A DNA stretch of 37,790 nucleotides from Kiritimatiellia bacterium (GCA_017459225.1 JAFUDL010000137.1:1-37790); one strand, 5' to 3'. Counted from the first letter of the stretch, positions 1 to 23,792 are shown. Notes: generated by a model not told the origin, from the letters alone. A program made the numbers and translations.

Positions 1-361
1 CCGCAAGCTCCTTGAAGCACGCCGCGGCAGTCTGCATGTTGGCGGCCACCCTGATCTGCGTGAGCGCGTTCGACCACATGAGCTTCTGGCGCGTGTAGTT
101 TTCGGCGTTGCGCGCCTGCATGCGCGAGAACTGGAAGAACTGGCGCGCCTCGACGTCGCGCCCCACGGCGAGCTTCTGCTTGCCCTGCTGGTAGAACTTC
201 TCCTGCTCGCGCGCCGCCTGGCGCTGGCCTTCGCCGAGCGCGTCGATTGACTTCTCGATGCCGCGCTCGAGGTTGCGCTTCTGCCGGCGTCTTTCCGCCT
301 CAATTTCCTCTGTTGTCTTGAAGATGTTGCCGAGGTTCTTGATAATGCTTCCAAATGACAT
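1..361 (-). CDS. ESCRT-III/Snf7-like (PspA/IM30 superfamily) coiled-coil protein, paralog 2; N-terminus complete, C-terminus beyond the window edge
   Basis: Not in the ORF track because it is open at the window edge. My own minus-strand translation from ATG 361-359 gives MSFGSIIKNLGNIFKTTEEIEAERRRQKRNLERGIEKSIDALGEGQRQAAREQEKFYQQGKQKLAVGRDVEARQFFQFSRMQARNAENYTRQKLMWSNALTQIRVAANMQTAAACFKELA, with no stop down to nt 2. A purine-rich SD-like tract (AAAGAAAGAGAGAG on the minus strand, about 366-379) lies upstream. The N-terminus parallels the neighbouring 228-aa protein. The basic helix 1 and the G(R/K)D..A..(F/L)...R......Y......M......Q..V......Q......(F/M)K layout recalls CHMP/Vps24-type ESCRT-III. 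The family call is by eye only. Confidence 0.55.
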   Translation of the reverse strand, partial: MSFGSIIKNLGNIFKTTEEIEAERRRQKRNLERGIEKSIDALGEGQRQAAREQEKFYQQGKQKLAVGRDVEARQFFQFSRMQARNAENYTRQKLMWSNALTQIRVAANMQTAAACFKELA

Positions 362-415
362 GGGGCTCTCTCTTTCTTTTCAGATAGTTTCCATGAAGGT
401 CCATTCTGACAACGC

Positions 416-1102
416 TCAACCAACTGCAGGCGTTGCGGGGGCGGGTGCCGGCTCGGCAGGAGCTGGCGTTTCGGTGGCCGGTTCAGGAACCGGAGCGGCA
501 GGCGCTTCTGTTTGCGGCGCGCTCGGCGAACTCGCCCTACCGGCGTCGGCCGCTGGAGCAGGAGTGCCAAGCATCGCGGCCCTTCTCGCAGCGCGCGCGG
601 CGTCTTCGCTTCTCGTATCCTTTGCCGCACGCTTCTTCTTGCCCATGTCGTCGAGTTTACCAACCTTCTCAGCCGTCTCGTTGCGCTCCCCGAGCATGTC
701 CTCCACCTGCTCCATGAGAATCTCGACCTCGGCAGGGTCGGCGGCGTGGCGCGCCTGTTCGAGAAGCTGCTCGCACTTGGCGCGTATTGCGCGCTGGGCG
801 GTGATGTTCTCGCCCATCTGCTGCGCGAGAGACCGCTTGCGTTCGAACTCCTTCTCTAGCTCGTCCACCTGGTCCATGAGCAGATCCTGGTTGTTCGGAT
901 TCGTCTCCACCTGGAGCTGGCGCTTGAGCTCGGCGATCTTGTCGCCAATCGCCTTGTTGGCGCGCATGATCGTGTTGCGGTTCTCCTCCATCTCCGCGAT
1001 CTTCTGCTTCACGGAGTCGATCCGCGCGATGAGCTGTCGCTGCCTGGCGGGCTTGACCCCGAAGATGCCTAGGATTTTTTCGATGATGTCACCGAGTGTC
1101 AT
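416..1102 (-). CDS. ESCRT-III/Snf7-like (PspA/IM30 superfamily) coiled-coil protein, paralog 1, with a Pro/Ala-rich C-terminal tail
   Basis: 228-aa ORF. ATG 1102-1100 overlaps the TGA 1101-1099 of the upstream helicase gene (ATGA coupling). N-terminus is MTLGDIIEKILGIFG, followed by long charged heptad-like helices. The segment DPAEVEILMEQVEDMLGERNETAEKV resembles the Snf7 alpha5 pattern D.vD..mD.I.E......EI. A KKKR patch follows, then a tail of about 50 aa (GTPAPAADAG...PAPAPATPAVG). Confidence 0.6.
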   Translation of the reverse strand: MTLGDIIEKILGIFGVKPARQRQLIARIDSVKQKIAEMEENRNTIMRANKAIGDKIAELKRQLQVETNPNNQDLLMDQVDELEKEFERKRSLAQQMGENITAQRAIRAKCEQLLEQARHAADPAEVEILMEQVEDMLGERNETAEKVGKLDDMGKKKRAAKDTRSEDAARAARRAAMLGTPAPAADAGRASSPSAPQTEAPAAPVPEPATETPAPAEPAPAPATPAVG

Positions 1103-4100
1103 GTTGTTTCCTTTCTCTTTGTCGCTTTTTCAAATGCTTCAAGAAGACGCTTCTCCGCACGAGCGCGATCGTATGCCCAATCCTCAACCCAGGCATGAAC
1201 GATGTTCCATCCGAGCGAAGCGAGAACGGAGTCGCGCAGACTGTCGCGGTCGCGCGCGGTGCGCGCGCCGGCGTAGTCGATGCCGTCGCATATCACGCCC
1301 AGCACGTAGCGCGAACCGTCCTCGGGATCGCGCACCGCCACGTCCACTCTGCTGCCGCCGCATCCAACGGCGCGCGCCACCTTTGCGCCGGCATGCTCCA
1401 GAACGGACGCCACCTCCTCCGCGAAGCGGTCCTTCTCGAGATCCCTCTGCGGAAGCGCGATGCGGTATCCCTTCTCCGCGTATTCGAGGAAGGCCCGCAG
1501 GTCGGCCGGACCCTGACGCGAGATGCGGTCTACGTCGATCTGGTGGCCGTGTATACTCGACACCACCACGATCTTCTCCTTCGCGCGCGTGATCGCCACG
1601 TTCAGTCGGCGCTCGCCGCCCTGGTTGCTCAAGGGGCCGAACACCATGTTGAACTTTCCGTTCGCGTCCGGCGCGTATCCAACCGAGAAAACAATCGCGT
1701 CGCGCTCGTCGCCCTGCACGTTCTCGAGGTTCTTCACGAAGAACGGTTCGTTCTCCTGTTCCGCAAAGCGCGGCTCGAGCTCTGGATGCTCGCTGCGCCT
1801 CTCGTCCACAAGGTCCTCAATGAGGTCGCGCTGCGCCTCGCTGAACGTGACGACTCCGATTGACTTCCCGGCGCACTCCGGATCCGCCATCCACTTCATC
1901 ACGAAGTCGGCCACCGTCTCGGCCTCGCGCTTGTTTGTGCGGCTGCCGCTCGCCTCGTACACGCCGTCCGGCACGTACACGAAGCTGACGCCAAGACGGT
2001 CGGTGAGAGACGCCGCGGGGAATATCTGCAGCCCGCCCTCGTAGTAGCGCTGGTTCGAGAACGCGATCAGCGACTCGTGGCGGCTGCGGTAGTGCCAGCC
2101 GAGGAAGCTGGAAGGCACTCCCGCGTGCAGGCATTCGTCCAGAATGCTCTCGAGGTCCTCCACCTCCGCCTCTTCGTCCGCGCCTTTCTGGAAGAAGCTA
2201 GTGGGCGGCATCTGTTTCGGGTCGCCCACAACGATCAGCTGCTTTCCGCGCGCGATCACGCCGATGGCGTCCCACACCGGAATCTGCGAGGCCTCGTCGA
2301 ACACCACGAGATCGAACGCGGCGTCCACGGGCAGATACTGCGCCACTGAGAGCGGACTCATCAGGAAGCATGGCTTGATGGCGGGCGTGAGGGTAGGCGT
2401 TTCGGCGAGGATCTGGCGCACTGGCTTCTGGCGCATCTTCTTGCCGCATTCGTGCATCAGGAGGCCGAGCTCGCTCGTGTCGCCGCGGCGCGCGCGGCCG
2501 TCGTTTCGCGGAATGCGCGCGGAGAGCGTTGCCACGAGGCTCTTCTGCGCGAGGCTGGCGCAACGTTCATCGAGCTCGCGGAAGCGCTCGATCTGGTTTT
2601 CGCGCTTCATCCCCTGGAAGAATCCGAACTCCGGCTCGCCGTCCATGATCTCGTCGAGAAGCTTGAACTGGAACGCCTTGGAGAAACGGTCCGCCAGTGC
2701 GGCTCCGTTCGGCGCGTCGTCGGCATCGATCGCCGCGGCTGCACTCCCTGCGATCGCGGGAATCTTCCTGCGTGCCTCGAAGTACATGAACGCCTGGCGC
2801 AGATTGCCCTTTGCATGCGCCGCTATCTTTCCCGCCTCCTCGGCAAGCGCACCCGCCTTCTCGGGAGCGAGCTCGCCCTTCTCCGCGGCGATGATCTCTC
2901 CCGCTGCGGCACAGGCCTTATCGATGCGCAGCTCGGCCCTCGCACGCGCCTCCATCCAGCCTTCGGGATCTGCCTTCGCCGGCTCGAAGCCCGCGTTCAG
3001 CAGCTCCTTCGCGCGAGGCTCGAGCTTCGCGAGCTCCTCGTCGGCTGCCTGCAGGTTCGCGGCCATCTTCATCGCCTCGCGCAGGCGAACGCGGTCAAGC
3101 GCGCCGTCCTTGGCTATCGATGCGTACGAGCGCACGAGCGCACGCTCCTTGAAGATGCGCGTCAGTATGAACGAGCCGTCTATCTCCGCGACACGCCGGC
3201 GCAGCTCGCGCAGCGGCATCTCCCTGAGAGCCTGAATGTCGTACTCCGTCCCGACGTTCCGCTCGAACGTGCGGGACTCCTTGAGAAAATTGAAATACCT
3301 CTTCAGGAAACGCGCGGCTTCATCTGCCGGACCTCCCACGGCGGCAAGTTCCGCCACAGCCGCGCGAAGCTCCTCGGCGACGTGCGAGGCGTTCTCCGCG
3401 AGGCGGGCTTCAGATCCCGGACTCCACGCGAACGGCTTCACGCGCGCAAGCGCCTTCACCGCGTCTGCGGAAATTCCCTCCCTCATCTCGGCCGCCGCCG
3501 CAATCGCGCGCAGAGCCTGCTCATAGTCGGCGGCAGTCGTCTCTCGCGCGCTTCCCTTCACCGCGAACGATGCATCCTCGCCGATCTCGCCGCGCACTAG
3601 GCGGGAGAAGAGCTCATACGGCGTGAAGCCGCTCACCGTCTCTCTGTGAAGCGCCTTTACGTAGCCGTCGAGCTGGCGGCGCATCGACTCCATCTCGCCC
3701 ACCACCGCGCTTCTGTCGCCGGGCGGCGAGGAAGCGCCTACCTTCAGCGCCTCGGAAAACTGGGCGTACACGTCCCCCTTGCCGGTCTTGTTCGAATGCA
3801 GCTGCAGGCAGAACGGAGCAAGCCCAATGCGCGCAAGGCGGTTGTACACGACGTCGAGCGCGGCCTTCTTCTCGGAGACGAACAGCACGCGCCGTCCGAG
3901 CGAGAGGTTGTGCGCGATGAGGTTTGTGATCGTCTGCGACTTTCCGGTGCCGGGCGGACCATGCAGCACGAACGTCTTGCCCAGCGCCGAGTAGAGGATG
4001 GCCGCGAGCTGCGAAGAGTCCGCGCTCATCGGGCAGCACAGATGCGAATAGTCGAGATGGCGGTCCACCTCCTTCGCCGGGAAGATCTCCACTCCGTCGT

Positions 4101-6018
4101 CGAACGTTCCGGCCCTGTTGATCAGGTGGGCGATGAGAGGATGCGAGCGGATCGCCTCGCTGCGCGAAGTGAGATCCTTCCACATCACGAACTTGCCGAA
4201 GGAGAACTGCCCGAGGATGCACTCCTCCGTCACCGCGAGGCCCGGCAGATCGCGCACGGCCGCGCGGAAGATGCCGAACACCTTCGCCACGTCCACGCCG
4301 GAGTCGTCGGTAGGCAGCGGATCGAGTCCAGGCACCGAAAGCTGGTACTCCACGCGCAGCATCTCGAGGAGCGTGGTGTTGACGATCGTCTCCTCGTCGA
4401 TTCTGTGAATGCGGTATCCCTCCGCCACGCTGCGCCGCTCAATTCTCACCGGCATCAGCAGAATCGGCGCGCGGTATGCCGAGCTCGACTTGGCACCACC
4501 CGCCTCTCGCCATTCAAGCGCGCCGAACGCGAGGAACAGAGTGTTGACGCCGCTCTCCTCAAGGTCCACGCGGGCCGCACGGTATAGCTCTTTCATCCGC
4601 CGTTCGGTCTCGCGCTTCGGCAGCGCGCTCCACAGGTCGCACTCGCGAAGCGACTTCACGAGAGTGTCGCGGTACTGCTCGATCGCCGCGGCGGGCGGAA
4701 GGCGCTGAAAGGCGCGCCCTGCATCTTCGTCCAGGAAGTTCTCGTACGACTTCACGCGGAATCCGCTGTCCGCCGCAAGCGCGTCTTCTAGCTTCGCGGG
4801 CTCGGGGCAGAGAATCGGCACCACCTTCGCGGTGCCGCGCACGTTCAGAAGCCGGTTGGCCTTGGAGAGATCGAGAAGACGCTGCGCCCAGCCGTCCATG
4901 CGCGCCTGGGCGGAGTCCTTCGCGCCGCGGTCATTTCCAAGCTCGTCGAGGTCGATGTCCTCCTTCAGCGCGCGCGTTGCATCGTCGCGTGCGTTGACAT
5001 CGCGCCCATCGACCTCGCCGAATCCTCCGCCCGGCGCGACGGGAAGCGAGCGAACGCCCATGCCGCGCGCGAGCGCCACGTCAACCGCCGAACGGAATGC
5101 GGGCTGGTGCAGCAGATGCTTCTTGGCGGCGCTCTCCGCTTCGGCGAAGGATGAGTTGCCGCCGACAAGCGTGGTCTCGATCACGATGAACGTGTCGTCG
5201 TCCATCGCCTTGCGCAGCGTTTCCACATCCGTCACCACGGGATCGTGGAAGCTCTTGTCCAGCAGATGGCATCCAACGAAGGCGTGGTTCTCTATCAGCA
5301 CCACGACGGGCCTCAGCCCGCACAGTTCGAACATCGAGGCGAAGAGCAACGTGGTGTCGAGGCAGCAGCCGGTCTTGTACTTGAGGATCTCGTCCGGCAG
5401 ACGTACCTTCTGCCCGGGCTGGCCGAACGTCGCGGGCGCCACGGCATAGGAGATTCCGAGGTTCTGCACCGCGCGGTAAACTGCCTTGCAGATGTCGTAC
5501 ACGGCCGCCTTGCCCTGGAGATAGCCCACGATCGCCGCGGAGCCCGTCGTCTCCTCGAGGATCTTCGCGACGTCGGCCTGAATGCGGCGCGTGGCGTCGC
5601 AGCTGGGGATGACGAAACTCGCGTAGTAGATGGGGCGCCCGCAGCCAAGCGTCTGGTCGGGCGGGTAGGCGGTCTGGCGGGCGGACGCGAACGCGAGCTC
5701 GTTGCCGTCGGCGTCCTGCACCGCCGCACGCACCTCGCCCTCCTTCACGTCGGCAAGCTCGGAGAGGAACGCATAGTCCAGCCTGGGCTCGCCTTCCGGA
5801 ATCGGCACGCACACCGTCTCGCCAGGCTGCACCGCGGCGAGCGCCATCTCAAGCGGACGAAACAGGCCGATGTCCGAAGACACCACAAGCCTCGCGCCCA
5901 CGAGAGTCTCCTCGCCGGCGTTCTTCACGCGCACCTCTCGCAGCACGGACTGCCCCGCCTGCTGAAGCACCAATCCGCTCTCCGCGGCCACATCCACTTC
6001 TACCGTCAGATTGTTCAT
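1099..6018 (-). CDS. Giant SF1 helicase-nuclease (Hhe-like: DUF4011-like + Upf1-like helicase + Vsr/DUF559-type endonuclease fold) with an N-terminal transglutaminase-like Cys-protease domain
   Basis: 1639-aa ORF. Domains by eye: aa 1-120 beta-rich. Aa ~130-300 transglutaminase-like core (KTGCCLDTTLLFASMF, ENHAFVGCHL, HDP). Aa ~375-650 DUF4011-like (RLLDLSKANRLLNVRG, NTLFLAFGALEW, APILLMPV). Helicase motifs: GPPGTGKSQT (Walker A, nt about 3937-3966), VVFDEASQI, VVGDPKQMPPTSFF, WHYRSRHESLI, VVTFSEAQ, VQGDERDAIVFSVGY, GERRLNVAITRAKEKIVVV, with a coiled-coil insert of roughly 300 aa between the helicase lobes. C-terminus: GCGGSRVDVAV...YVLGVICDG..Y, a PD-(D/E)xK-like fold. Confidence 0.9.
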   Translation of the reverse strand: MNNLTVEVDVAAESGLVLQQAGQSVLREVRVKNAGEETLVGARLVVSSDIGLFRPLEMALAAVQPGETVCVPIPEGEPRLDYAFLSELADVKEGEVRAAVQDADGNELAFASARQTAYPPDQTLGCGRPIYYASFVIPSCDATRRIQADVAKILEETTGSAAIVGYLQGKAAVYDICKAVYRAVQNLGISYAVAPATFGQPGQKVRLPDEILKYKTGCCLDTTLLFASMFELCGLRPVVVLIENHAFVGCHLLDKSFHDPVVTDVETLRKAMDDDTFIVIETTLVGGNSSFAEAESAAKKHLLHQPAFRSAVDVALARGMGVRSLPVAPGGGFGEVDGRDVNARDDATRALKEDIDLDELGNDRGAKDSAQARMDGWAQRLLDLSKANRLLNVRGTAKVVPILCPEPAKLEDALAADSGFRVKSYENFLDEDAGRAFQRLPPAAAIEQYRDTLVKSLRECDLWSALPKRETERRMKELYRAARVDLEESGVNTLFLAFGALEWREAGGAKSSSAYRAPILLMPVRIERRSVAEGYRIHRIDEETIVNTTLLEMLRVEYQLSVPGLDPLPTDDSGVDVAKVFGIFRAAVRDLPGLAVTEECILGQFSFGKFVMWKDLTSRSEAIRSHPLIAHLINRAGTFDDGVEIFPAKEVDRHLDYSHLCCPMSADSSQLAAILYSALGKTFVLHGPPGTGKSQTITNLIAHNLSLGRRVLFVSEKKAALDVVYNRLARIGLAPFCLQLHSNKTGKGDVYAQFSEALKVGASSPPGDRSAVVGEMESMRRQLDGYVKALHRETVSGFTPYELFSRLVRGEIGEDASFAVKGSARETTAADYEQALRAIAAAAEMREGISADAVKALARVKPFAWSPGSEARLAENASHVAEELRAAVAELAAVGGPADEAARFLKRYFNFLKESRTFERNVGTEYDIQALREMPLRELRRRVAEIDGSFILTRIFKERALVRSYASIAKDGALDRVRLREAMKMAANLQAADEELAKLEPRAKELLNAGFEPAKADPEGWMEARARAELRIDKACAAAGEIIAAEKGELAPEKAGALAEEAGKIAAHAKGNLRQAFMYFEARRKIPAIAGSAAAAIDADDAPNGAALADRFSKAFQFKLLDEIMDGEPEFGFFQGMKRENQIERFRELDERCASLAQKSLVATLSARIPRNDGRARRGDTSELGLLMHECGKKMRQKPVRQILAETPTLTPAIKPCFLMSPLSVAQYLPVDAAFDLVVFDEASQIPVWDAIGVIARGKQLIVVGDPKQMPPTSFFQKGADEEAEVEDLESILDECLHAGVPSSFLGWHYRSRHESLIAFSNQRYYEGGLQIFPAASLTDRLGVSFVYVPDGVYEASGSRTNKREAETVADFVMKWMADPECAGKSIGVVTFSEAQRDLIEDLVDERRSEHPELEPRFAEQENEPFFVKNLENVQGDERDAIVFSVGYAPDANGKFNMVFGPLSNQGGERRLNVAITRAKEKIVVVSSIHGHQIDVDRISRQGPADLRAFLEYAEKGYRIALPQRDLEKDRFAEEVASVLEHAGAKVARAVGCGGSRVDVAVRDPEDGSRYVLGVICDGIDYAGARTARDRDSLRDSVLASLGWNIVHAWVEDWAYDRARAEKRLLEAFEKATKRKETT

Positions 6019-6051
6019 AGGTCGTTTTTGAACTACTCCGCCAAAATAATA

Positions 6052-6075
6052 ATGAACATTATATCAAAAGTTCAT
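6052..6075 (-). promoter_or_regulatory. Candidate promoter of the helicase operon (extended -10 TGaTATAAT, minus strand, 6058-6066) embedded in the palindrome ATGAAC-N12-GTTCAT
   Basis: The minus strand reads cttTTGaTATAATgttcat about 40 nt upstream of ATG 6018. The 6-bp inverted arms at 6052-6057 and 6070-6075 bracket the -10 box. A weak -35 (TGGCAA) lies 17 nt upstream. Confidence 0.35.
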
Positions 6076-6113
6076 CGACTTTGCCATGCGCGGATTGCAC
6101 GCCTCACGTCATT

Positions 6114-6147
6114 TTGGTATCATAGTCTCATTGGTATCATAGTCTCA
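6114..6147 (+). repeat. Perfect 17-bp tandem duplication (ttggtatcatagtctca x2), each copy carrying an extended -10-like TGgTATCAT; candidate twin promoters for the DPP-IV gene
   Basis: Copies at 6114-6130 and 6131-6147 are identical. TGGTATCAT occurs at 6115-6123 and 6132-6140, which is 35-52 nt upstream of ATG 6175. The repeat itself is certain. The promoter role is inferred. Confidence 0.6.
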
Positions 6148-6174
6148 CTTCCAACGCAACACTTTCACCAGGCC

Positions 6175-8241
6175 ATGGACAGAATGAAAATTCCCGCTAC
6201 TATCGCAGCCGCCACGTTCGCGCTCATCGCGGCGGCGGATGCCTCGTTCGACGACCTCAAGCCCGCCCGGCGCACGGCGCGCGCAGCGTTCGATGCGAGC
6301 GCGCACGTGCTTGAATGCCCAAGCCGCATAGCGTGGGACGGCGACGACGCCTTCGTCTATTCCACGCGCTCGGCCTCCGGCAACGTGCTGCGCCGCTTCG
6401 AGGTGCCGTCGTCGAATCTCGTGGACATCGCCCAGCGCCGCTTCGACGCCGTGCAGCTCCGCTCCGGCAGGTCTCACGAACCTCCAGCCCACCATTTCAT
6501 CGGTCCGTCGGGGGGAGGTCCGCTCGCCTCGCCAGACGGCAAGTGGACCGCATTCGTGCGCGACCACAACGTGTGGATCCGCTCCGATGCCGGCGAATCG
6601 CAGCTTAGCTGGGACGGCTGCGCCGATGACCGCTACATGAGACTTATGTGGAGCCCAGACTCGCGCAAGCTAGCCGCCCTGCGCATCCAGCTCATCAACT
6701 CACGCCAGATCACGCTCGTCGAGAGCCGCCCCTCCGACTCCGTGCATCCCGCAACGCGCAAAATCACATACGAGAAGCCAGGCGATGCCCGTCCTCAGGC
6801 GACGCCCGTTCTCTTCATTCCCTCCGAACGCCGCGCTGTCCCGATCGACCTATCCGACTACGGCAGCCAGTACGAGCTCCATCTCGACTGCTGGTCGCCC
6901 GACTCCTCGTTCTTCACTTTCCTGTACACGCGCCGCGGCTACCAGCTGCACCGCTACTCGGCCGTGGACGCCTCCACAGGACGCGTGCGCACCATCGCCG
7001 AAGAGTCGTCCGACAAATTCGTATTCGTCAACAACCTCCGCCGCTGGTGGTTCGCCGACGGCACGCGCCTTCTCTGGATATCGAGCCGCGACGGCTGGCG
7101 CCACCTCTACATGGTGAACGCGAAGGACGGCTCCGTTACCCAGCTCACCAAGGGCGAATGGAACGTGCGCGAGATGCATCACATCGACGAGGCAGCCGGA
7201 CGCATCTTCTTCTACGCGAACGGCTATGCCGCGGCAAGCGGAGAAGATCCCTACAACAGGCACCTTATGAGCCTCGACCTCGCAACGCGCGCCGTCACGG
7301 ACCTCACCCCCTCCAACGCCGACCACCGAGTGCGCCTCAACCCGTCCGCAACGCGCTTCACCGACTACTGGAGCCGCCCCGACCTGCCGCCGCAATTCGC
7401 CGTGCGCGACGCCGCCGATGGCCATGTAATCGCGAATCTGCCGCCCGTCAACGTATCGTCGCTCAATACGCCCGCATATCCAAAGGGCGAAGTGTTCCAT
7501 GCCAAGGGACGCGACGGCGCCACCGATATCTGGGGCGTCATCTGGCGCCCGTGCAACTTCAATCCGTCAAACCGCTATCCCGTCGTCGAATTCATATACG
7601 CCGGCCCGCACGACTCGCACGTGCCAAAAGATTTCCCCGTGAATCCTCCGCGCGGCATCGAGATGCTTGCGGACGGCTTCGTGGTGGTGCAGATCGACGG
7701 CATGGGCACAGCCAACCGCTCGCGCGCGTTCCACGAGGTGTGCTGGCGAAACCTCAAGGACGCCGGCTTCCCGGACCGCATTCTCTGGATGCACGCTGCC
7801 GCCGAGTCACGTCCGTGGATGGACCTCTCGCGCGTCGGCATCTACGGCTACTCGGCCGGCGGACAGAACGCGCTCGGCGCACTTCTCTTCCATGGCGATT
7901 TCTACCGCTCTGCGGTTGCGCTATGCGGATGCCACGACAACCGCGTGGACAAGATGTGGTGGAACGAGCAGTGGATGGGCTACCCGATCGGACCCTGGTA
8001 CGCCGAGAACTCGAACGTGACGAACGCGCACCGCCTCAAGGGCGACCTGCTGCTCATCAACGGTGAACTGGACGAGAATGTGGATCCCGTTTCGACACTG
8101 CAGGTGGTGGGCGCCCTCGTGAAGGCCAACAAGCGCTTCGAGCAGCTCTATCTGCCCGGCTTTGGCCACAACCTCGGCGACCACTACATCGGCGGCAGAA
8201 TACTCGACTTCTTCCGCCGCACGCTCAAGAAGCAGCGCTAG
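6175..8241 (+). CDS. Secreted dipeptidyl-peptidase IV / prolyl oligopeptidase family S9B serine peptidase
   Basis: In-frame ATG at 6175 within track ORF 5245-8241 gives the signal peptide MDRMKIPATIAAATFALIAAADA. DPPIV_N-like propeller motifs: WSPDSRKLA, WISSRDGWRHLYMV, LTKGEWNV. S9 catalytic triad context: GIYGYSAGGQNA (Ser), NGELDENVD (Asp), GFGHNL (His). Confidence 0.9.
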   Translation: MDRMKIPATIAAATFALIAAADASFDDLKPARRTARAAFDASAHVLECPSRIAWDGDDAFVYSTRSASGNVLRRFEVPSSNLVDIAQRRFDAVQLRSGRSHEPPAHHFIGPSGGGPLASPDGKWTAFVRDHNVWIRSDAGESQLSWDGCADDRYMRLMWSPDSRKLAALRIQLINSRQITLVESRPSDSVHPATRKITYEKPGDARPQATPVLFIPSERRAVPIDLSDYGSQYELHLDCWSPDSSFFTFLYTRRGYQLHRYSAVDASTGRVRTIAEESSDKFVFVNNLRRWWFADGTRLLWISSRDGWRHLYMVNAKDGSVTQLTKGEWNVREMHHIDEAAGRIFFYANGYAAASGEDPYNRHLMSLDLATRAVTDLTPSNADHRVRLNPSATRFTDYWSRPDLPPQFAVRDAADGHVIANLPPVNVSSLNTPAYPKGEVFHAKGRDGATDIWGVIWRPCNFNPSNRYPVVEFIYAGPHDSHVPKDFPVNPPRGIEMLADGFVVVQIDGMGTANRSRAFHEVCWRNLKDAGFPDRILWMHAAAESRPWMDLSRVGIYGYSAGGQNALGALLFHGDFYRSAVALCGCHDNRVDKMWWNEQWMGYPIGPWYAENSNVTNAHRLKGDLLLINGELDENVDPVSTLQVVGALVKANKRFEQLYLPGFGHNLGDHYIGGRILDFFRRTLKKQR

Positions 8242-9134
8242 TCCTTCACAGGCAAGACCGTCATCGTGGAGAGTCGCTTCCCCGCCGGCGAGTAGCTCCA
8301 CACAATCTTCTTGTCGCGCGTAACCTCGAACGCGGTCGCACGGTCGCCCTTCTCCGTGCCATTTGCATATGTGCCAATCACGAGATTTCCGTTCGGCCTC
8401 TCGAATATGCCGCAGAGGTTTGCAAGCTTCAGCGCGGGAGCGTCCTCGCACGAGAAGCGCCACACCACCTTGTGGTCGGGCGTGTACTCGGTCACAGCGC
8501 CGAGATGGGAGATGAGCGTGTTGCCGTTCACGCGCCGGAACGCCTCGAAGGCGAGTGCAGGCGTGGGCTGCTCCCAGATGAGTTTGCCCGAGGCATCGTA
8601 CTCGCGCACGATGTTCGCGCCCGAGCAACACACAAGATAAGTGCCCGCCGCGGTGCGGCTCACCATGCGGTAGTGGTGATGCGGCGACGGCATCTTGCCG
8701 TCAGCGCCTCGCGGATCGCCCTTGAACTTCGCCACAACATCCTTCGTGTCGATCTTCATCTCGGTGATGTAGTCTGTGCCGTTCTCCGCAACCACGATGT
8801 TGCCGTTTGAGGCGATGTCGAACCCGTACGTTCCCTCGCGCGGCGCGGGCTTGTAGTAGAGCTCAGTCTTGCCGGTGGCGATCTCGGTGACCCACACATT
8901 GCCGTTGGACCAATACACCTTGCCGCCGCACTTCACCGCGCGGTGGATGTTGCCGCACTTATCCTTCTTCCACGTTACCTTTCCGTCAGGATCGACCATC
9001 CACACGCTTCCTCCACCGCACACGAGCAGCGTCTCGGGTGGACGCCCCCTCAACCGCTCTCCGCCAATCTCCAACGCCTGCGCGGTGATCGCAAGCGCAA
9101 TGCACGCCGCCGATGCCAGAATCATCTTCTTCAT
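8238..9134 (-). CDS. Secreted beta-propeller-like protein of unknown function
   Basis: 298-aa ORF with signal peptide MKKMILASAACIALAITAQA. Repeated short beta-strand blocks (GKVTW, GKVYW, GNIVV, GKLIW, HKVVW, KKIVW) are typical of propeller blades. Its ATG (9134-9132) overlaps the rpoN stop (ATGA). Confidence 0.7.
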   Translation of the reverse strand: MKKMILASAACIALAITAQALEIGGERLRGRPPETLLVCGGGSVWMVDPDGKVTWKKDKCGNIHRAVKCGGKVYWSNGNVWVTEIATGKTELYYKPAPREGTYGFDIASNGNIVVAENGTDYITEMKIDTKDVVAKFKGDPRGADGKMPSPHHHYRMVSRTAAGTYLVCCSGANIVREYDASGKLIWEQPTPALAFEAFRRVNGNTLISHLGAVTEYTPDHKVVWRFSCEDAPALKLANLCGIFERPNGNLVIGTYANGTEKGDRATAFEVTRDKKIVWSYSPAGKRLSTMTVLPVKD

Positions 9135-10630
9135 TGAATCTTCTCCTTTCGTCTTTCCCTTGTGCCGGGGATCTTAAGCTCCTCGCGGTATTTCGCCACG
9201 GTGCGCCGGGCCACCACCACATGCTCCTTCTTGAGAATCTCCACGATGCTCTGGTCTGAGAGAGGCTTTGCGGGATCCTCGCCTTCGATGATGCTGCGGA
9301 TGCGGTTTATCACCGCGGTCTTCGCCACCTCTTCATCGCCGCCTTCGGTAGCCACACCGCGCAAGAAGAACTTGCGCATCTCGATGATTCCCATCGGCGT
9401 GGCCATGTACTTGCCGTTGACGGCGCGAGACACCGTGGAGCTGTGCAGGCCGGTTGCTTCGGCCACCTGGTCCATCGTGAGCGGACGCAGCGCCGAGAGC
9501 GACCTGGCGTCGAAGGCTCGGCTCTGCTCGTTGACGATTGCCTGCGCGATGCGGCGTATGGTCTCCTGACGCTCGGCCATCGAATCCAGTAGACTCTCCG
9601 CCTCGTCAACTGATTTTCTGGCATAGCTGCGTGCCTCCGCGTCTAAGCGGCGGTCGTTCTGCATGCGCCTGTAGTCGCGCGATATCACCACCTTCGGCAG
9701 ATAGCCTTCGGGCACGCGCACCTTCCACGCGCCCGATGCAGTCTGCACCACGTACACCTCGGGCTCAATGTAGATGGAGAGATCCTCGCGCGGCTGGAAT
9801 CCTCGCCCGGGATGGCGTGTTAGCTTGCGAAGTTCGGCAAGAACGTTCGGAAAATCAGCGGCGTCGATTTTCAAGTCCTTCAAGATCGGCTCCATGCGCT
9901 TCGCCATGAGGTCCGGGATGTGACGGTCCACAAGCGCGCGCACCTCGTCCTCCCATGGGGAGTCGTCGAGTTTCTCCATCTGCATGAGCAGGCATTCGCG
10001 CAGGTTGCGTCCGCCGCAGCCAAGCGGATCGAAACGCCCGATCTGCGCGAGAATCGCAAGCACGTGCGCCTCAGTCACCATGCCGCTCGTCATCTGGATG
10101 TCGGGAATCGAGCCGGTGAAATAGCCGTCGTCGTTGATGTTGTACACCAGCGTCTCGGCGAGACGGCGGTCTTCCGTCTTTATGTCCGAAAGCGGTATCT
10201 GCGCAAGAAGATGATCCTGCAGCGTCTCCGTCTTCACCTGGCGGTCGAAGAAGGCCTGGCGGCGCGTCTGCGCGTCGGGATCGACCGCGCCGTTCTCGGA
10301 CGAAGGCTCGAAGTTCTCCATGTTCTTGAGGAACTGGTCGCGGTCCGAATCGTCGGTGGAAAGCGTCTCAATGCCCTGCGGAGTGGAGGGATTGAATTCC
10401 AGCTCCTTCTCCGAGACGCTTCCGCTCACATGCGCCTCGGGAAGCGCGGCGGACATCGGCACCTCCGCCCTCCACTCGATGGACTCAATCGCAGGGTTGA
10501 GGCTCATCTGCCTCTGCAGCTCCGCCCGCAGTTCCGTGATCGGCCTCTGCAGAATCGCCAGCCCCTGCTGCATTTTGGGCGACAGGGTCTGCGTCTGCGT
10601 CTGCCTGGGGAGTAGCTGCTGCTCTAGCAT
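9131..10630 (-). CDS. rpoN: RNA polymerase sigma-54 factor RpoN
   Basis: 499 aa. The N-terminal region I is Gln/Leu-rich (LSPKMQQGLAILQRPITELRAELQ). The core-binding and DNA-binding regions are present, including the C-terminal RpoN box (ARRTVAKYREELKIPGTRERR). Confidence 0.95.
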   Translation of the reverse strand: MLEQQLLPRQTQTQTLSPKMQQGLAILQRPITELRAELQRQMSLNPAIESIEWRAEVPMSAALPEAHVSGSVSEKELEFNPSTPQGIETLSTDDSDRDQFLKNMENFEPSSENGAVDPDAQTRRQAFFDRQVKTETLQDHLLAQIPLSDIKTEDRRLAETLVYNINDDGYFTGSIPDIQMTSGMVTEAHVLAILAQIGRFDPLGCGGRNLRECLLMQMEKLDDSPWEDEVRALVDRHIPDLMAKRMEPILKDLKIDAADFPNVLAELRKLTRHPGRGFQPREDLSIYIEPEVYVVQTASGAWKVRVPEGYLPKVVISRDYRRMQNDRRLDAEARSYARKSVDEAESLLDSMAERQETIRRIAQAIVNEQSRAFDARSLSALRPLTMDQVAEATGLHSSTVSRAVNGKYMATPMGIIEMRKFFLRGVATEGGDEEVAKTAVINRIRSIIEGEDPAKPLSDQSIVEILKKEHVVVARRTVAKYREELKIPGTRERRKEKIQ

Positions 10631-22346: not shown

Positions 22347-23792
22347 TTAGATCCCAAGCAAGTCCTTGAACCTGATGATCGCGTCAAAGAATCCATCGGC
22401 CTCCACTGACGGTGCCAGTTCGCCCTCGTACACAAGCGCGGTGCGGACAGACACGCTCTTCGGGTGCGGCAGCAGCCGACGCTTCCGCTCGACTTCGTAG
22501 ATGACCTCGCGGCCGATGTTCGCCTTGCGCTTGACCTCGACGACGCAATAGGACATTTTCGTCTGGAGAAGCAGATCAACCTGGACGCCCTCCTTGCCCG
22601 AACTTTCGGACGCCTTCCGAAAATACGGCGCGGCCGACAGGACGAGCGTGCGATCCATGTGCAGCGGCGAAAGAAGCTCTGCGGCATTGTTCACGACGAG
22701 ATTTTCGAACTGAAGCCCCTTGATCGCATCCCAACCTGAAAACTGTTCAATGCCAGCGAACTTGAACAACCCCGTGTCGATGACACGCTTGACCGGCGCA
22801 ACGTACTTCAGGTAAAATCTCGCATAGTTGTCCCTGAGCCTGTATTTCTTTTCCCTGATGTCCGCGCCTGTCTCTGGATTCTTTCCGGCATCGTCCGAAA
22901 CGAATCCCGATTCCGCAAGGCGCGCGAGCGCGGCCGACAACCGTCCTCCTTTCCCCTCTTCCAGCATTTCCGCGATGTCCGTCACGCTGCGCGACCCGTC
23001 GACAAGGCAGTTCAAGACCCTTGCCGTGAAGGCCGGTTGATGCGTGATGACGTCCGTGAACATCTCGTCGAAATCCGTCCGCAGGATGCTGTTGGGCAGA
23101 AAACACATCTGCCTGATGTTCTCATCGGCGGAAAGGGACGGATTGACCTCCTCCAGATAGCGCGGAACGCCGCCTGTCACGGAGAGCACGTCGATTATCT
23201 CCCTGGGATTGACGCGCTCCGCCGCCCGTCCCCAGAACTTGACGCATTCCTTAAGAGGCAGTTCTCCGACCACGAGATCGAGCGAACGGCGTCCCATGTA
23301 GGACGAATTGTCGATGAAGTTCTCTTTGATCCAGGAGGATACGCTCCCGCACAACACCAGAATCAGCCGATCATGGTCCTTCCAATAATTCTCCCACGCG
23401 ATTCTGACCGTGTTTGCGAACATCGGGTCGTAGTAGCCCATCCATGAAATTTCGTCCAGTAGGACAACGGTCTTCTGTCCATTCTTGACCTCGTGGTCAA
23501 GACGAATAAACGCCTCCAGCCAGTTTTGCGGTACCGTCCGCGCGCAACCCGTCTGGGCCGCCAGTTGCTCGACAAATGCGCGAAGCTCGTCTGCATTTGA
23601 GAAGCCCTCTTCGGGATGCACCCCCTCGATCTTCAAGAAGCGAACACCTGTCTTTTTCGCAAATTCCTTGATGAGCGTACTTTTGCCAATGCGACGGCGC
23701 CCCCTGCATGTAACCAAAGAGGATGTTCTCTTGCCCCATAATGAGGCAAGCTGCTCAATCTGATCTTGTCGTCCAACGAACATGAAAGACAC
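22347..23792 (-). CDS. AAA-type ATPase of the Arch_ATPase (PF01637-like) family with a DUF234-like C-terminal region
   Basis: 481-aa ORF. The N-terminus FVGRQDQIEQL...LVTCRGRRRIGKSTLIKEF carries the Walker A motif. VVLLDEISWM is Walker B-like. A winged-helix-like middle region and a C-terminal nuclease-fold-like region (VVEVKRK) follow. Confidence 0.85.
   Translation of the reverse strand: MSFMFVGRQDQIEQLASLWGKRTSSLVTCRGRRRIGKSTLIKEFAKKTGVRFLKIEGVHPEEGFSNADELRAFVEQLAAQTGCARTVPQNWLEAFIRLDHEVKNGQKTVVLLDEISWMGYYDPMFANTVRIAWENYWKDHDRLILVLCGSVSSWIKENFIDNSSYMGRRSLDLVVGELPLKECVKFWGRAAERVNPREIIDVLSVTGGVPRYLEEVNPSLSADENIRQMCFLPNSILRTDFDEMFTDVITHQPAFTARVLNCLVDGSRSVTDIAEMLEEGKGGRLSAALARLAESGFVSDDAGKNPETGADIREKKYRLRDNYARFYLKYVAPVKRVIDTGLFKFAGIEQFSGWDAIKGLQFENLVVNNAAELLSPLHMDRTLVLSAAPYFRKASESSGKEGVQVDLLLQTKMSYCVVEVKRKANIGREVIYEVERKRRLLPHPKSVSVRTALVYEGELAPSVEADGFFDAIIRFKDLLGI

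What the first reader, a model, noticed from the sequence alone, without database searches (positions are those of the whole stretch)
1..6075. Translationally coupled operon linking an Hhe-like helicase-nuclease giant to two ESCRT-III/Snf7-like proteins: candidate undescribed defence or membrane-remodelling system
Seen in the sequence:
- The 1639-aa helicase-nuclease gene ends in TGA 1101-1099, which overlaps the ATG 1102-1100 of a 228-aa coiled-coil gene.
- A paralogous coiled-coil gene starts 54 nt after that gene's stop, behind a purine-rich SD, and runs off the window.
- I see no promoter or terminator between the three genes. The only promoter-like element is the TGaTATAAT at 6058-6066, upstream of the helicase.

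Established knowledge:
- DUF4011 + SF1 helicase + Vsr-like nuclease in a single polypeptide is the architecture of the single-gene anti-phage system Hhe (Gao et al. 2020; Gao_Hhe in DefenseFinder).
- The ESCRT-III superfamily (Snf7/CHMP, and bacterial PspA/Vipp1) forms membrane-remodelling or membrane-repair polymers.

Inference:
- I know of no described system that pairs a nucleic-acid-sensing or -degrading helicase-nuclease with ESCRT-III-like proteins.
- The tight coupling argues for stoichiometric co-function. Possibilities include a membrane-directed effector or repair arm, or membrane tethering of the helicase.
- The operon is cut at the left edge, so further partners (for example a Vps4-like AAA ATPase) may lie beyond position 1.
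Basis: partly seen in the sequence, partly recalled or inferred. Interest (0 to 1): 0.85.

Follow-up and report, generated by a model that had tools for sequence, protein, structure and literature searches.

The report
Bacterial ESCRT-III operon with helicase-nuclease
A gut/rumen bacterium (Kiritimatiellae) carries a mobile operon that joins an anti-phage-type helicase-nuclease to Snf7-type ESCRT-III proteins and an AAA ATPase resembling Vps4, a machinery that recent reviews describe as absent from bacteria.

Summary

- **Helicase.** The 1639-aa gene (1099-6018, minus strand) belongs to NCBIfam "anti-phage protein ProA" and PADLOC PDC-S37. It is related to Hhe but fails the Hhe cut-off. Its TGA overlaps the ATG of a 228-aa gene (B), and this overlap is kept in every related locus.
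- **Protein C.** The next gene (206 aa when complete) is a divergent Snf7-clade ESCRT-III protein. 49 of 65 relatives hit Pfam Snf7, and the family profile hits yeast Snf7 at 7e-11.
- **Protein B.** B is probably a second, more divergent ESCRT-III-like protein (profile-profile probability 91%).
- **Beyond the window edge.** Its N-terminal domain is probably MIT-like. After it come a conserved polytopic membrane protein, two membrane-anchored proteins and a Ser/Thr kinase. DO-GTPase-like proteins with variable C-termini flank the operon.
- **Wider distribution.** The B-Snf7-AAA core, in most sampled loci with the membrane protein, occurs in other metagenomic lineages. There the slot upstream of B holds papain-like, Lit-like or caspase-like peptidases instead of the helicase.

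A swappable enzyme on a conserved ESCRT core, moving as a unit between genomic contexts, suggests a conflict (defence) system. A pure envelope-repair role is not excluded. No description was found in the literature searched.

The parts
6058..6087 (-). Promoter-like element: ATGGCA, 18-nt spacer, TG-extended TATAAT, upstream of the helicase gene
   Evidence: It matches 10 of 12 positions and is the best site in 1-6400. TGnTATAAT recurs upstream of the orthologous helicases in L017, L018 and L019.
1099..6018 (-). ProA/PDC-S37-type helicase-nuclease, 1639 aa, related to Hhe. First gene of the operon.
   Evidence: NCBIfam NF058533 ProA scores 1571 bits (cut-off 1500). The Hhe model scores 726 bits (cut-off 2000). 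PADLOC gives PDC-S37 1068 bits. Pfam domains are listed.
4357..4881 (-). DUF4011 domain of the helicase (aa 380-554)
   Evidence: PF13195, E = 1.3e-39.
1555..4020 (-). SF1 helicase core (AAA_11 from aa 667, AAA_12 to aa 1488), with Walker A sequence GPPGTGKS
   Evidence: PF13086 E = 1.7e-15 and PF13087 E = 2.1e-19. Translation.
1135..1425 (-). MTES_1575 restriction-endonuclease-like nuclease domain (aa 1532-1628)
   Evidence: PF18741, E = 1.7e-24.
1099..1102 (-). ATGA stop/start overlap coupling the helicase to gene B
   Evidence: Conserved in L001, L003, L007, L011, L014 and L017-L020.
416..1102 (-). Protein B, 228 aa, a probable divergent ESCRT-III-like protein. Predicted layout: N-terminal helix 3-13, hairpin 19-65/69-118, helix 123-155, conserved C-terminal helix 167-178 (DAARAARRAAMLG), then a Pro/Ala-rich tail.
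   Evidence: AF2 model, pLDDT 73.9. Foldseek hits are mixed: BAR domains, CT398, CdvB2, PspA. Family profile against the Snf7-like family: hhalign probability 90.7%, E = 1.2e-6. B-like genes precede Snf7-like genes in L023, L025, L027, L029 and L031 and, by position only, in L040.
362..415 (-). 54-nt spacer with a purine-rich ribosome-binding run (380-366)
1..361 (-). First 120 codons of protein C (206 aa in full), a divergent Snf7-clade ESCRT-III protein. The gene and the rest of the operon continue beyond the window edge.
   Evidence: The full gene is L001:10742-11362, and L001 is 99.97% identical to the window over 6.1 kb. Homology to Snf7 rests.

Best explanation
**Shown**

The region is the 5' third of an operon of about 12 kb. 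The gene order is: ProA-type helicase-nuclease, B, C, AAA ATPase, polytopic membrane protein (297 aa), membrane-anchored 284-aa protein, Hanks-type Ser/Thr kinase, membrane protein (402 aa). DO-GTPase-like P-loop proteins flank the operon.

- The operon is conserved in rumen and gut Kiritimatiellae and sits in different genomic contexts in different species, so it moves as a unit.
- C is an Snf7-clade ESCRT-III protein.
- B is probably a second, more divergent ESCRT-III-like subunit.
- The ATPase N-terminal domain, about 70 aa, is homologous across all versions of the system. Its best match among solved structures is the MIT domain of VPS4B.
- Many relatives of C end in DINAGxxRLxxLL, which resembles the MIM1 motif that MIT domains bind.
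- The core B-Snf7-AAA, in most sampled loci followed by the membrane protein, is older and broader than the helicase link. In other lineages the gene upstream of B is a membrane-anchored papain-like peptidase (C1). Nearby upstream genes encode a Lit-like peptidase (U49) in one locus and a caspase-like fragment plus an LRR protein in another. Some loci add a sigma/anti-sigma-like pair, a Band-7 protein or an FHA protein.

**Inferred**

- B and C co-polymerise on the inner membrane through their N-terminal amphipathic helices, probably nucleated by the conserved membrane protein.
- The MIT-AAA ATPase remodels or disassembles the polymer, as Vps4 does.
- The kinase and the GTPases, with their variable C-terminal domains (FGE-sulfatase, vWA, Sel1, DUF805), act as sensors or regulators.
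- The enzyme in the upstream slot is the effector. Here it is a nuclease-helicase that attacks invading DNA.
- Overall I read this as a membrane-associated conflict (anti-phage or anti-mobile-element) system. In it, ESCRT-III-mediated membrane sealing, scission or tethering is coupled to destruction of foreign nucleic acid.
For: **Operon anatomy and extension.**. Intergenic gaps are -4, 54, 10, 17, 13, 20, 17 and -4 nt.

**Conservation at low identity**
- L011 keeps the same order with B 42%, helicase 65% and kinase 41% identical.
- L014 and L017-L020 also keep it.
- None of the L001 flanking genes (sigma-54, DPP-IV, EamA) occurs in the flanks of L017-L020.
- In L011 a GTPase-FGE gene is wedged between two ProA-like helicases, with overlapping stop and start codons.

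**C is Snf7-clade.**

**B.**

**AAA ATPase**
- PF00004 plus AAA_lid_6. It resembles CbbX (1.8e-64), SpoVK and EccA.
- Its N-terminal domain is homologous to that of the Cdc48-like ATPases in the distant loci (hhalign probability 96.9%, E = 1.8e-10).
- The combined N-terminal profile has VPS4B/SKD1 MIT domains as its top three PDB hits (E = 0.019-0.05, full length).

**Variable upstream slot.** Peptidase_C1 in L023, L025, L029, L031 and L040. Peptidase_U49/Lit in L027. Peptidase_C14 plus LRR in L039.

**Shared accessory genes**
- The 297-aa membrane protein is 33% identical in L023 (E = 2e-42).
- The DO-GTPase-like proteins, the kinase and the 402-aa protein are shared by their N-terminal sequences between the Kiritimatiellae loci and L027.

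**Defence flavour**
- ProA/PDC-S37 assignment of the helicase.
- The kinase matches PD-T4-6 and MAD6 models.
- L023 lies among Schlafen/AlbA_2, PRiA4 and AEP-DEAD genes.
- The family is rare: 5 species out of 185,579 in the genome scan.
Against: - No experiment exists, and the defence role is inferred from context only.
- The window itself is not a defence island. Its other genes are glycoside hydrolases, peptidases and sigma-54.
- ProA homologues on proteobacterial plasmids stand alone. The helicase can therefore work without an ESCRT module.
- Several distant loci begin with a sigma-70-r4-like and zinc-finger anti-sigma-like pair and contain lipoproteins. That is the signature of an envelope-stress regulon rather than of immunity.
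- No PADLOC model matches B, C, the membrane protein or the GTPases.
- The MIT assignment is marginal (E about 0.02). It disappears when either sub-profile is used alone.
- The Kiritimatiellae C protein lacks the MIM1-like tail seen in its relatives.
- The ATPase here is of the CbbX/SpoVK type, not the Vps4 type.
- One strain (L002) has the helicase split into two ORFs.
Confidence: 0.55

Rival explanations
1. This is an envelope-stress, membrane-repair or vesicle-forming ESCRT-III system, a functional analogue of Psp/Lia. The ProA helicase-nuclease is an independent single-gene defence element that inserted in front of it in Kiritimatiellae and is merely co-transcribed. There is no mechanistic interplay.
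For: - ProA homologues scoring 1978-2225 bits are solitary genes on Klebsiella, Pseudomonas and Falsirhodobacter plasmids.
- Distant versions of the core start with sigma/anti-sigma-like genes and include lipoproteins, Band-7 and FHA proteins. Band-7 is a known PspA partner (PMC11237479, PMC7619361).
- PADLOC has no hits for the ESCRT genes.
- The window's neighbourhood is housekeeping.
Against: - The 4-nt stop/start overlap between helicase and B persists while B diverges to 42% identity.
- In L011 a system GTPase gene is interleaved between two helicase genes with overlapping codons.
- The whole cluster, helicase included, changes genomic context as a block.
- In other lineages the same position or its immediate surroundings hold other degradative enzymes (C1, Lit-like U49, caspase-like C14 plus LRR). 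That is the pattern of effector swapping, not of random insertion.
Confidence: 0.3
2. B and C are generic coiled-coil proteins, and the ESCRT-III resemblance is an artefact of helical, charged composition.
For: - The window proteins have no direct Pfam or PDB sequence hit.
- Foldseek E-values are weak, 0.02-1.
- B's top Foldseek hits include BAR domains and other helical hairpins.
- The B family has no Pfam hits, and its PDB hits are ordinary coiled coils.
Against: For C:
- hhalign to relatives gives 99.9% probability and E = 5e-32 over 187 columns.
- 49 of 65 relatives hit Pfam Snf7 individually, best 5e-11.
- The family profile hits Snf7 at 7e-11 and Asgard ESCRT-IIIB at 3e-8 over most of its length.
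- The MIM1-like tail and the AAA partner are specific features.

For B:
- It has the same topology and N-terminal motif as C.
- It aligns to the Snf7-like family through the conserved 'DP..(I/V)E' turn.
- It is syntenic with Snf7-like genes in the unrelated loci examined.

The rival is essentially excluded for C. It remains possible for B alone, at roughly 0.25.
Confidence: 0.04
3. The ESCRT-III/AAA module is a housekeeping cell-division or compartment-forming machine of PVC bacteria, analogous to archaeal Cdv.
For: - Snf7-clade ESCRT-III with an ATPase drives division in Crenarchaeota (PMC10936438, PMC7619361).
- The host belongs to the PVC superphylum, some of whose members have unusual division and endomembranes (my own background knowledge).
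Against: - The family was found in only 5 species representatives in the genome scan, all Kiritimatiellae-like MAGs.
- It sits in different genomic contexts in different species.
- It shows gene decay: a truncated GTPase and a split helicase in L002.
- It is accompanied by nuclease, protease and kinase genes. These are the traits of an accessory element.
Confidence: 0.04

Closest known systems
Archaeal and eukaryotic ESCRT-III with Vps4 (CdvB/CdvC; Snf7/CHMP with VPS4)
   Same: - C belongs to the Snf7 branch. Profile hits go to yeast Snf7 and Asgard ESCRT-IIIB, not to PspA or Vipp1.
- There are two ESCRT-III-like subunits in tandem.
- An AAA ATPase follows immediately, with an N-terminal three-helix domain whose best PDB match is the VPS4B MIT domain.
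- Relatives of C carry a C-terminal MIM1-like motif.
- B and C share a short N-terminal helix resembling helix 0.
   Different: - The host is bacterial.
- The ATPase core here is of the CbbX/SpoVK/EccA type with AAA_lid_6. In other lineages it is Cdc48-like. Neither has a Vps4_C domain.
- No ESCRT-I, ESCRT-II or CdvA was seen.
- The partners are a nuclease-helicase or peptidases, a Ser/Thr kinase, DO-GTPase-like proteins and a dedicated polytopic membrane protein.
Bacterial PspA / Vipp1 / LiaH systems (ESCRT-III superfamily)
   Same: - Bacterial, membrane-associated ESCRT-III superfamily polymers with operon partners.
- Band-7 and DO-GTPase partners have been noted for PspA (PMC11237479).
- Ravi et al. 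also noted some bacterial Snf7-clade proteins next to AAA+ ATPases (PMC11237479).
   Different: - There is no PF04012 match, and the profile hits go to Snf7 rather than PspA.
- No PspB, PspC, PspF or Lia partners are present.
- A dedicated classical AAA ATPase with an MIT-like domain is present. A 2025 review says a Vps4-like ATPase appears absent in bacteria (PMC7619361).
ProA (NCBIfam NF058533) / PADLOC PDC-S37 / Hhe (Gao et al. 2020) single-gene helicase-nucleases
   Same: - The architecture DUF4011 + SF1 helicase + MTES_1575 nuclease.
- The score is above the ProA cut-off.
   Different: - The match covers ProA profile positions up to about 1711 of 1903, so the C-terminal DUF3320 part is missing.
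- It fails the Hhe cut-off.
- Unlike the solitary plasmid copies, it is translationally coupled to an ESCRT-III operon.
- I could not find the source publication for 'ProA' in the library.
NTP-dependent conflict systems with DO-GTPases, kinases and variable sensor domains (Kaur, Burroughs, Iyer and Aravind 2020; recalled from memory, not read here)
   Same: - P-loop GTPase-like proteins with swappable C-terminal domains (FGE-sulfatase, vWA, Sel1/TPR, DUF805).
- Swappable protease or nuclease effectors.
- A Ser/Thr kinase.
   Different: - The DO-GTPase matches are below Pfam thresholds (E = 1.5e-5 to 6e-3).
- An ESCRT-III/AAA core has not, to my knowledge, been described as part of such systems.

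Membership tests
Snf7 / ESCRT-III (PF03357), protein C | Sequence match to the Snf7 family profile | tested here: met
   The window's C has no direct hit. It is homologous to relatives (99.9%, E = 5e-32). 49 of 65 of those hit PF03357, best 5.1e-11. The joint profile hits yeast Snf7 at 7.3e-11.
Snf7 / ESCRT-III (PF03357), protein C | Helical hairpin (alpha1-alpha2/3) followed by alpha4 and alpha5, with a short N-terminal helix | tested here: met
   The AF2 model (pLDDT 77.5) has helices 3-13, 17-65, 69-105, 109-123, 137-164 and 174-189. Foldseek top hits are CdvB (probability 1.0), IST1, CHMP1B, Vipp1, CdvB2 and Snf7, but E-values are only 0.05-1 and TM-scores 0.4-0.5.
Snf7 / ESCRT-III (PF03357), protein C | C-terminal MIT-interacting motif | tested here: inconclusive
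   Relatives end in DINAGxxRLxxLL, which is MIM1-like. The Kiritimatiellae C ends in a Pro/Ala/Gly tail without it. Binding was not testable.
Snf7 / ESCRT-III (PF03357), protein C | Polymerisation on membranes and membrane remodelling | not testable with these tools
   This needs liposome and EM assays.
ESCRT-III superfamily, protein B | Sequence or profile relationship to ESCRT-III | tested here: inconclusive
   No Pfam or PDB sequence hit. hhalign of the B family against the Snf7-like family gives probability 90.7% and E = 1.2e-6 over 104 columns.
ESCRT-III superfamily, protein B | ESCRT-III fold | tested here: inconclusive
   The AF2 topology matches that of C. Foldseek hits mix BAR domains, CT398, CdvB2 and PspA.
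Vps4 (ESCRT-IV), the AAA ATPase at L001:11373-12470 | N-terminal MIT domain | tested here: inconclusive
   The combined N-terminal profile has VPS4B/SKD1 MIT as its top three PDB hits (E = 0.019-0.05, full length). The sub-profiles alone give nothing or a TPR protein. There is no Pfam MIT hit.
Vps4 (ESCRT-IV), the AAA ATPase at L001:11373-12470 | Vps4-type AAA core with the Vps4_C oligomerisation domain | tested here: not met
   Best matches are CbbX (1.8e-64), SpoVK and EccA, with AAA_lid_6. It is not a Vps4 orthologue but may work like one.
Hhe (Gao et al. 2020; NF042953) | Score above the equivalog cut-off | tested here: not met
   726 bits against a cut-off of 2000. In PADLOC the Hhe score (536 bits) is below PDC-S37 (1068 bits).
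ProA (NF058533) / PDC-S37 | Score above the equivalog cut-off, with DUF4011 + SF1 helicase + nuclease architecture | tested here: met
   1571 bits against a cut-off of 1500. The C-terminal ~190 profile positions (DUF3320 region) are absent.
PspA / Vipp1 (PF04012) | Match to the PspA_IM30 profile | tested here: not met
   No hit for B or C. Among 65 relatives of C, PspA_IM30 is not among the matched families listed.
Anti-phage defence system (generic) | Location in a defence island or on a mobile element | tested here: inconclusive
   The window's neighbours are housekeeping genes and CAZymes. However, the cluster changes context between species, and L023 lies among defence-like genes. It was not found on viral contigs.
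Anti-phage defence system (generic) | Protection against phage or plasmid on expression | not testable with these tools
   This needs an experiment.

The most novel reading that the evidence does not exclude
Bacteria possess a genuine Snf7-type ESCRT-III machine with an MIT-AAA (Vps4-like) partner, and it has been recruited as the chassis of an immune system. Sensors (Ser/Thr kinase, DO-GTPase-like proteins with variable domains) trigger ESCRT-III assembly at the inner membrane. That assembly seals, sheds or tethers the site of phage attack. Meanwhile an exchangeable effector destroys the invader or the cell: a ProA helicase-nuclease here, and papain-, Lit- or caspase-like peptidases elsewhere. 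This would be the first link between ESCRT-III membrane remodelling and prokaryotic immunity. It would also be a bacterial counterpart, or a horizontal relative, of the archaeal and eukaryotic ESCRT-III/Vps4 pair.
Probability: 0.35. Interest if true: 0.9.

Novelty: new variant of a known kind. Interest (0 to 1): 0.8.

Why it matters
**1. It bears on the origin and distribution of ESCRT.**
- Current syntheses state that ESCRT-III proper is confined to archaea and eukaryotes (PMC10936438).
- They also state that a Vps4-like ATPase appears absent in bacteria (PMC7619361).
- This locus pairs a bacterial Snf7-clade protein with a dedicated AAA ATPase carrying an MIT-like domain, and relatives carry MIM-like tails. 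The question becomes directly testable with soluble proteins of about 200 aa.

**2. It would add a new principle to prokaryotic immunity.** The repeated coupling of this core to nucleases and proteases, kinases and variable-domain GTPases points to a conflict system that uses membrane remodelling.

**3. It gives a context-dependent variant of ProA/PDC-S37.** The family is otherwise known as a stand-alone defence gene. This may help explain how such helicase-nucleases are targeted or restrained.

Tried and rejected
**Searches that found nothing**
- Direct hmmscan of B and C against Pfam, NCBIfam and PADLOC gave only sub-threshold coiled-coil noise.
- Narrow Kiritimatiellae-only profiles of B and C against PDB sequences found no ESCRT-III.
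- The Kiritimatiellae-only and non-Kiritimatiellae-only profiles of the ATPase N-domain against PDB found no MIT. Only the merged profile did.
- A scan of viral contigs found none, so there is no sign of a phage-borne version.
- The metagenome scan added only near-identical loci.
'PDC-S37', 'ProA + DUF4011', 'ProA/ProB anti-phage', 'ProA + Hhe', 'ESCRT-III + anti-phage' and 'Snf7 + defense system' gave nothing relevant.

**Ideas tested and rejected**
- BLASTP and narrow hhalign of B against C showed no paralogy beyond the first 17 residues.
- I tested whether B derives from the DUF3320 tail that this helicase lacks. hhalign gave probability 0.2%, so I rejected the idea.

**Tool limitations**
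I used P0001 (97% identical) instead.
Full report
**1. The observation**

- The minus strand of 1-6100 carries a 1639-aa ORF (1099..6018).
- Its TGA (1101-1099) overlaps the ATG (1102-1100) of a 228-aa ORF (416..1102), here called B.
- 54 nt after B's stop, behind the purine run AAAAGAAAGAGAGAG (380-366), an ATG at 361-359 opens a third ORF, here called C. It leaves the window after 120 codons.
- The consensus scan finds no terminator-like site in 1-6400, where shuffles gave a mean of 4.2.
- The best promoter-like site is ATGGCA-18-TATAAT with a TG extension at 6087..6058 on the minus strand.
- A TGnTATAAT element recurs upstream of the orthologous helicases in three other loci.
- The description is therefore accurate.

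**2. Extending the locus**

- An exact-protein look-up of B found 23 contigs.
- L001 is a 59-kb contig that is 99.97% identical to the window over 6.1 kb. It continues past position 1.
- The gene order, with intergenic gaps in nt, is:
  - helicase (-4) B
  - B (54) C, 206 aa
  - C (10) AAA ATPase, 365 aa
  - AAA (17) 297-aa protein with four predicted TM segments
  - (13) 284-aa protein with a C-terminal TM anchor
  - (20) Ser/Thr kinase, 581 aa
  - (17) 402-aa protein with one TM segment
  - (-4) a 58-aa P-loop fragment

**3. The helicase**

- Pfam finds DUF4011, AAA_11/AAA_12 (SF1 helicase) and the MTES_1575 nuclease.
- PADLOC's best model is the candidate single-gene system PDC-S37 (1068 bits). 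Hhe scores 536 bits.
- NCBIfam's equivalog 'anti-phage protein ProA' scores 1571 bits (cut-off 1500). The Hhe equivalog scores 726 bits (cut-off 2000).
- It is therefore a ProA/PDC-S37 member and a relative of Hhe, not Hhe itself.
- ProA homologues of 38-40% identity are common on proteobacterial plasmids (604 records). The three I inspected are solitary genes, in two cases among IS elements and toxin-antitoxin pairs, with no ESCRT-like neighbours.
- I could not find a paper that defines 'ProA'.

**4. Protein C is an Snf7-clade ESCRT-III protein**

- Direct searches fail.
- The word-indexed search finds only relatives of 57-97% identity.
- An exhaustive HMMER search with their profile finds 73 cluster representatives, almost all 197-223 aa and matched end to end.
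- Scanned one by one, 49 of 65 of these hit Pfam Snf7, best 5.1e-11.
- The joint profile hits yeast Snf7 (7.3e-11), Heimdallarchaeota ESCRT-IIIB (2.8e-8) and other ESCRT-III proteins in the PDB. It does not hit PspA or Vipp1.
- The Kiritimatiellae profile aligns to those relatives at 99.9% probability and E = 5e-32 over 187 columns.
- The AF2 model (pLDDT 77.5) has a short N-terminal helix, a long hairpin and three to four further helices.
- Its Foldseek hits are almost exclusively ESCRT-III: CdvB closed form, IST1, CHMP1B, Vipp1, CdvB2, Snf7, CHMP2A/3 and Asgard ESCRT-IIIB. E-values are weak.
- Many relatives end in DINAGxxRLxxLL, which resembles the MIM1 motif (D/E)xxLxxRLxxL(K/R). I recalled that consensus from memory. 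The motif is visible. The Kiritimatiellae C lacks this tail.

**5. Protein B**

- B has the same predicted topology as C and the same kind of N-terminus (MTLGDIIEKILGIFG against MSFGSIIKNLGNIFK).
- It carries a conserved C-terminal helix, DAARAARRAAMLG, after a variable linker.
- Its Foldseek hits are mixed: BAR domains, CT398, CdvB2 and PspA.
- B-like genes sit directly upstream of the Snf7-like gene in the unrelated loci.
- A 36-member B-family profile aligns to the Snf7-like family at 90.7% probability and E = 1.2e-6. The alignment includes the 'DP..(I/V)E..' turn that in Snf7 precedes alpha4.
- It has no Pfam or PDB sequence hit.
- I rate B as a probable divergent ESCRT-III-like subunit, at about 0.7-0.75.

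**6. The ATPase**

- Its core is of the CbbX/SpoVK/EccA type with AAA_lid_6.
- In the distant loci the ATPase is Cdc48-like.
- The first ~70 residues are nevertheless homologous between the two kinds (hhalign probability 96.9%, E = 1.8e-10).
- The merged profile of that domain has the VPS4B/SKD1 MIT domain as its three best matches in the whole PDB. These cover the full length, but E is only 0.019-0.05. Neither sub-profile finds it alone.
- This is suggestive, not proven.
- By family membership the ATPase is not a Vps4 orthologue. By position and N-domain it looks like a functional analogue.

**7. Conservation and mobility**

- *Taxonomy.* Genome and metagenome scans place the family in Kiritimatiellae MAGs from ruminant and other gut samples.
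- *Gene order.* The order helicase-B-C-AAA-TM-284/345-kinase-402 and the 4-nt helicase/B overlap hold in every locus with enough sequence. L011 keeps them with B 42%, helicase 65% and kinase 41% identical.
- *L011.* A GTPase-FGE-sulfatase gene lies between two ProA-like helicase genes, with overlapping codons.
- *Flanks.* None of L001's flanking genes occurs in the flanks of L017-L020, even though L017's helicase is 93% identical. The cluster is therefore an accessory unit that relocates.
- *GTPases.* Paralogous DO-GTPase-like P-loop proteins with different C-terminal domains (FGE-sulfatase, vWA, Sel1, DUF805) flank the operon in each locus. In the window's strain one copy is reduced to 58 aa.

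**8. The wider family**

Seven distinct distant loci were sampled.

| Loci | Genes upstream of B and Snf7 | Genes downstream |
|---|---|---|
| L023, L025, L029, L031, L040 | Peptidase_C1 directly upstream of the B-like gene, mostly with predicted TM segments; preceded in L023, L029 and L031 by a sigma-70-r4-like and zinc-finger anti-sigma-like pair | AAA ATPase; in L023 and L029 a homologue of the 297-aa membrane protein (33% identical in L023) |
| L027 | Band-7, FHA, a Lit-like U49 peptidase and a 474-aa protein | AAA, a TM protein, a 1046-aa DO-GTPase-like protein, a Ser/Thr kinase, a homologue of the 402-aa protein, and a DO-GTPase |
| L039 | A caspase-like C14 fragment and an LRR protein | A 366-aa gene cut by the contig end |

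- Sources.
- The invariant core is B + Snf7 + MIT-like AAA, in most loci with the membrane protein. The enzyme upstream is exchangeable.
- I did not determine the taxonomy of these loci.

**9. Interpretation**

- *Conflict system.* A conserved chassis with swappable degradative enzymes points to a conflict system. So do the variable-domain NTPases, the kinase matching PD-T4-6/MAD6 models, the patchy distribution and the relocation as a block.
- *Proposed mechanism.* This part is inferred. ESCRT-III polymer assembles at the inner membrane and is turned over by the ATPase. The polymer repairs or seals phage-inflicted lesions, sheds membrane, or holds the ProA nuclease-helicase at the site of DNA entry.
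- *Main rival (0.3).* The module could be an envelope-stress or repair system that ProA has merely joined. The sigma/anti-sigma pair, the lipoproteins and Band-7 in distant loci favour this. So do the solitary ProA copies elsewhere and the housekeeping surroundings in the window.

**10. Novelty**

- Ravi et al. (PMC11237479) noted that some bacterial Snf7-clade proteins lie next to AAA+ ATPases and that DO-GTPases accompany some Psp loci.
- Makarova et al. (PMC10936438) treat ESCRT-III proper as confined to archaea and eukaryotes.
- A 2025 review (PMC7619361) states that a Vps4-like ATPase appears absent in bacteria.
- I found no paper linking Snf7 or ESCRT-III to a helicase-nuclease, to these peptidases, or to phage defence.
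- I file it as a new variant of a known kind: an ESCRT-III/AAA system in a new host domain with new partners.

Noticed in passing
window 6114-6147: A perfect tandem duplication of a 17-nt unit (TTGGTATCATAGTCTCA x2) lies about 30-60 nt upstream of the promoter-like -35. It is absent from the corresponding region of L017. It could be an operator or a recent duplication.
   Followed up: partly
L001:17238-17414 (beyond the window edge); L001:19318-20502: The 58-aa ORF ending the operon is a truncated copy of a DO-GTPase-like P-loop protein. It is 81-100% identical over 26-28 aa to full-length genes in L011 and L018-L020. The gene annotated only as DUF805 about 2 kb downstream is an intact paralogue (GTPase domain + DUF805). 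Paralogues in other loci carry FGE-sulfatase, vWA or Sel1 domains instead.
   Followed up: partly
L001:11373-12470 compared with L023:10672-11799: The ATPase cores belong to different AAA subfamilies: CbbX/SpoVK-like in Kiritimatiellae and Cdc48-like elsewhere. The ~70-aa N-terminal domains are nevertheless homologous (96.9%, E = 1.8e-10). This looks like displacement of the ATPase module behind a retained adaptor domain.
   Followed up: partly
L002:5089-10004: In one strain the helicase is called as two ORFs (1315 + 293 aa). This could be a frameshift or pseudogene, or an assembly error.
   Followed up: no
window ~5240-5500 (helicase aa ~173-260): The N-terminal region of the ProA-type helicase contains a transglutaminase-like (papain-fold) core motif, GCCLDTTLLFASMFELCGLRP...HAFVGCHL. 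The Pfam hit is weak (DUF553, E = 0.1). It is curious that the slot upstream of B holds papain-like C1 peptidases in other lineages.
   Followed up: no
L001:14270-14320 and L001:12488-12540: The N-termini of the kinase (MGFLDVLYRFLGRKG) and of the 297-aa membrane protein (MRFGGLFHGFSFG) resemble the N-terminal helix motif of B and C. The kinase motif is not kept in L011 (MFGLFEKKK...). Its meaning is unknown.
   Followed up: no
window 22347-23792 (-): A 481-aa ATPase_2/AAA_16-type NTPase lies in the lowest-GC stretch of the window (0.53-0.55 against about 0.62). It may be a separately acquired gene.
   Followed up: no
window 27222-30608 (-) and 33411-34550 (-): Large ORFs of 1128 and 379 aa have no Pfam match at E <= 1e-5, in a region of lower GC (0.56-0.58).
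   Followed up: no
L001:20555-20687: A second gene with MTES_1575/DUF559 nuclease domains starts just downstream of the GTPase-DUF805 gene and runs off the locus.
   Followed up: no
L031:7301-8611 and 8625-10037: This distant locus has two B-like and two Snf7-like genes in tandem. Its ATPase appears to contain two AAA modules.
   Followed up: no
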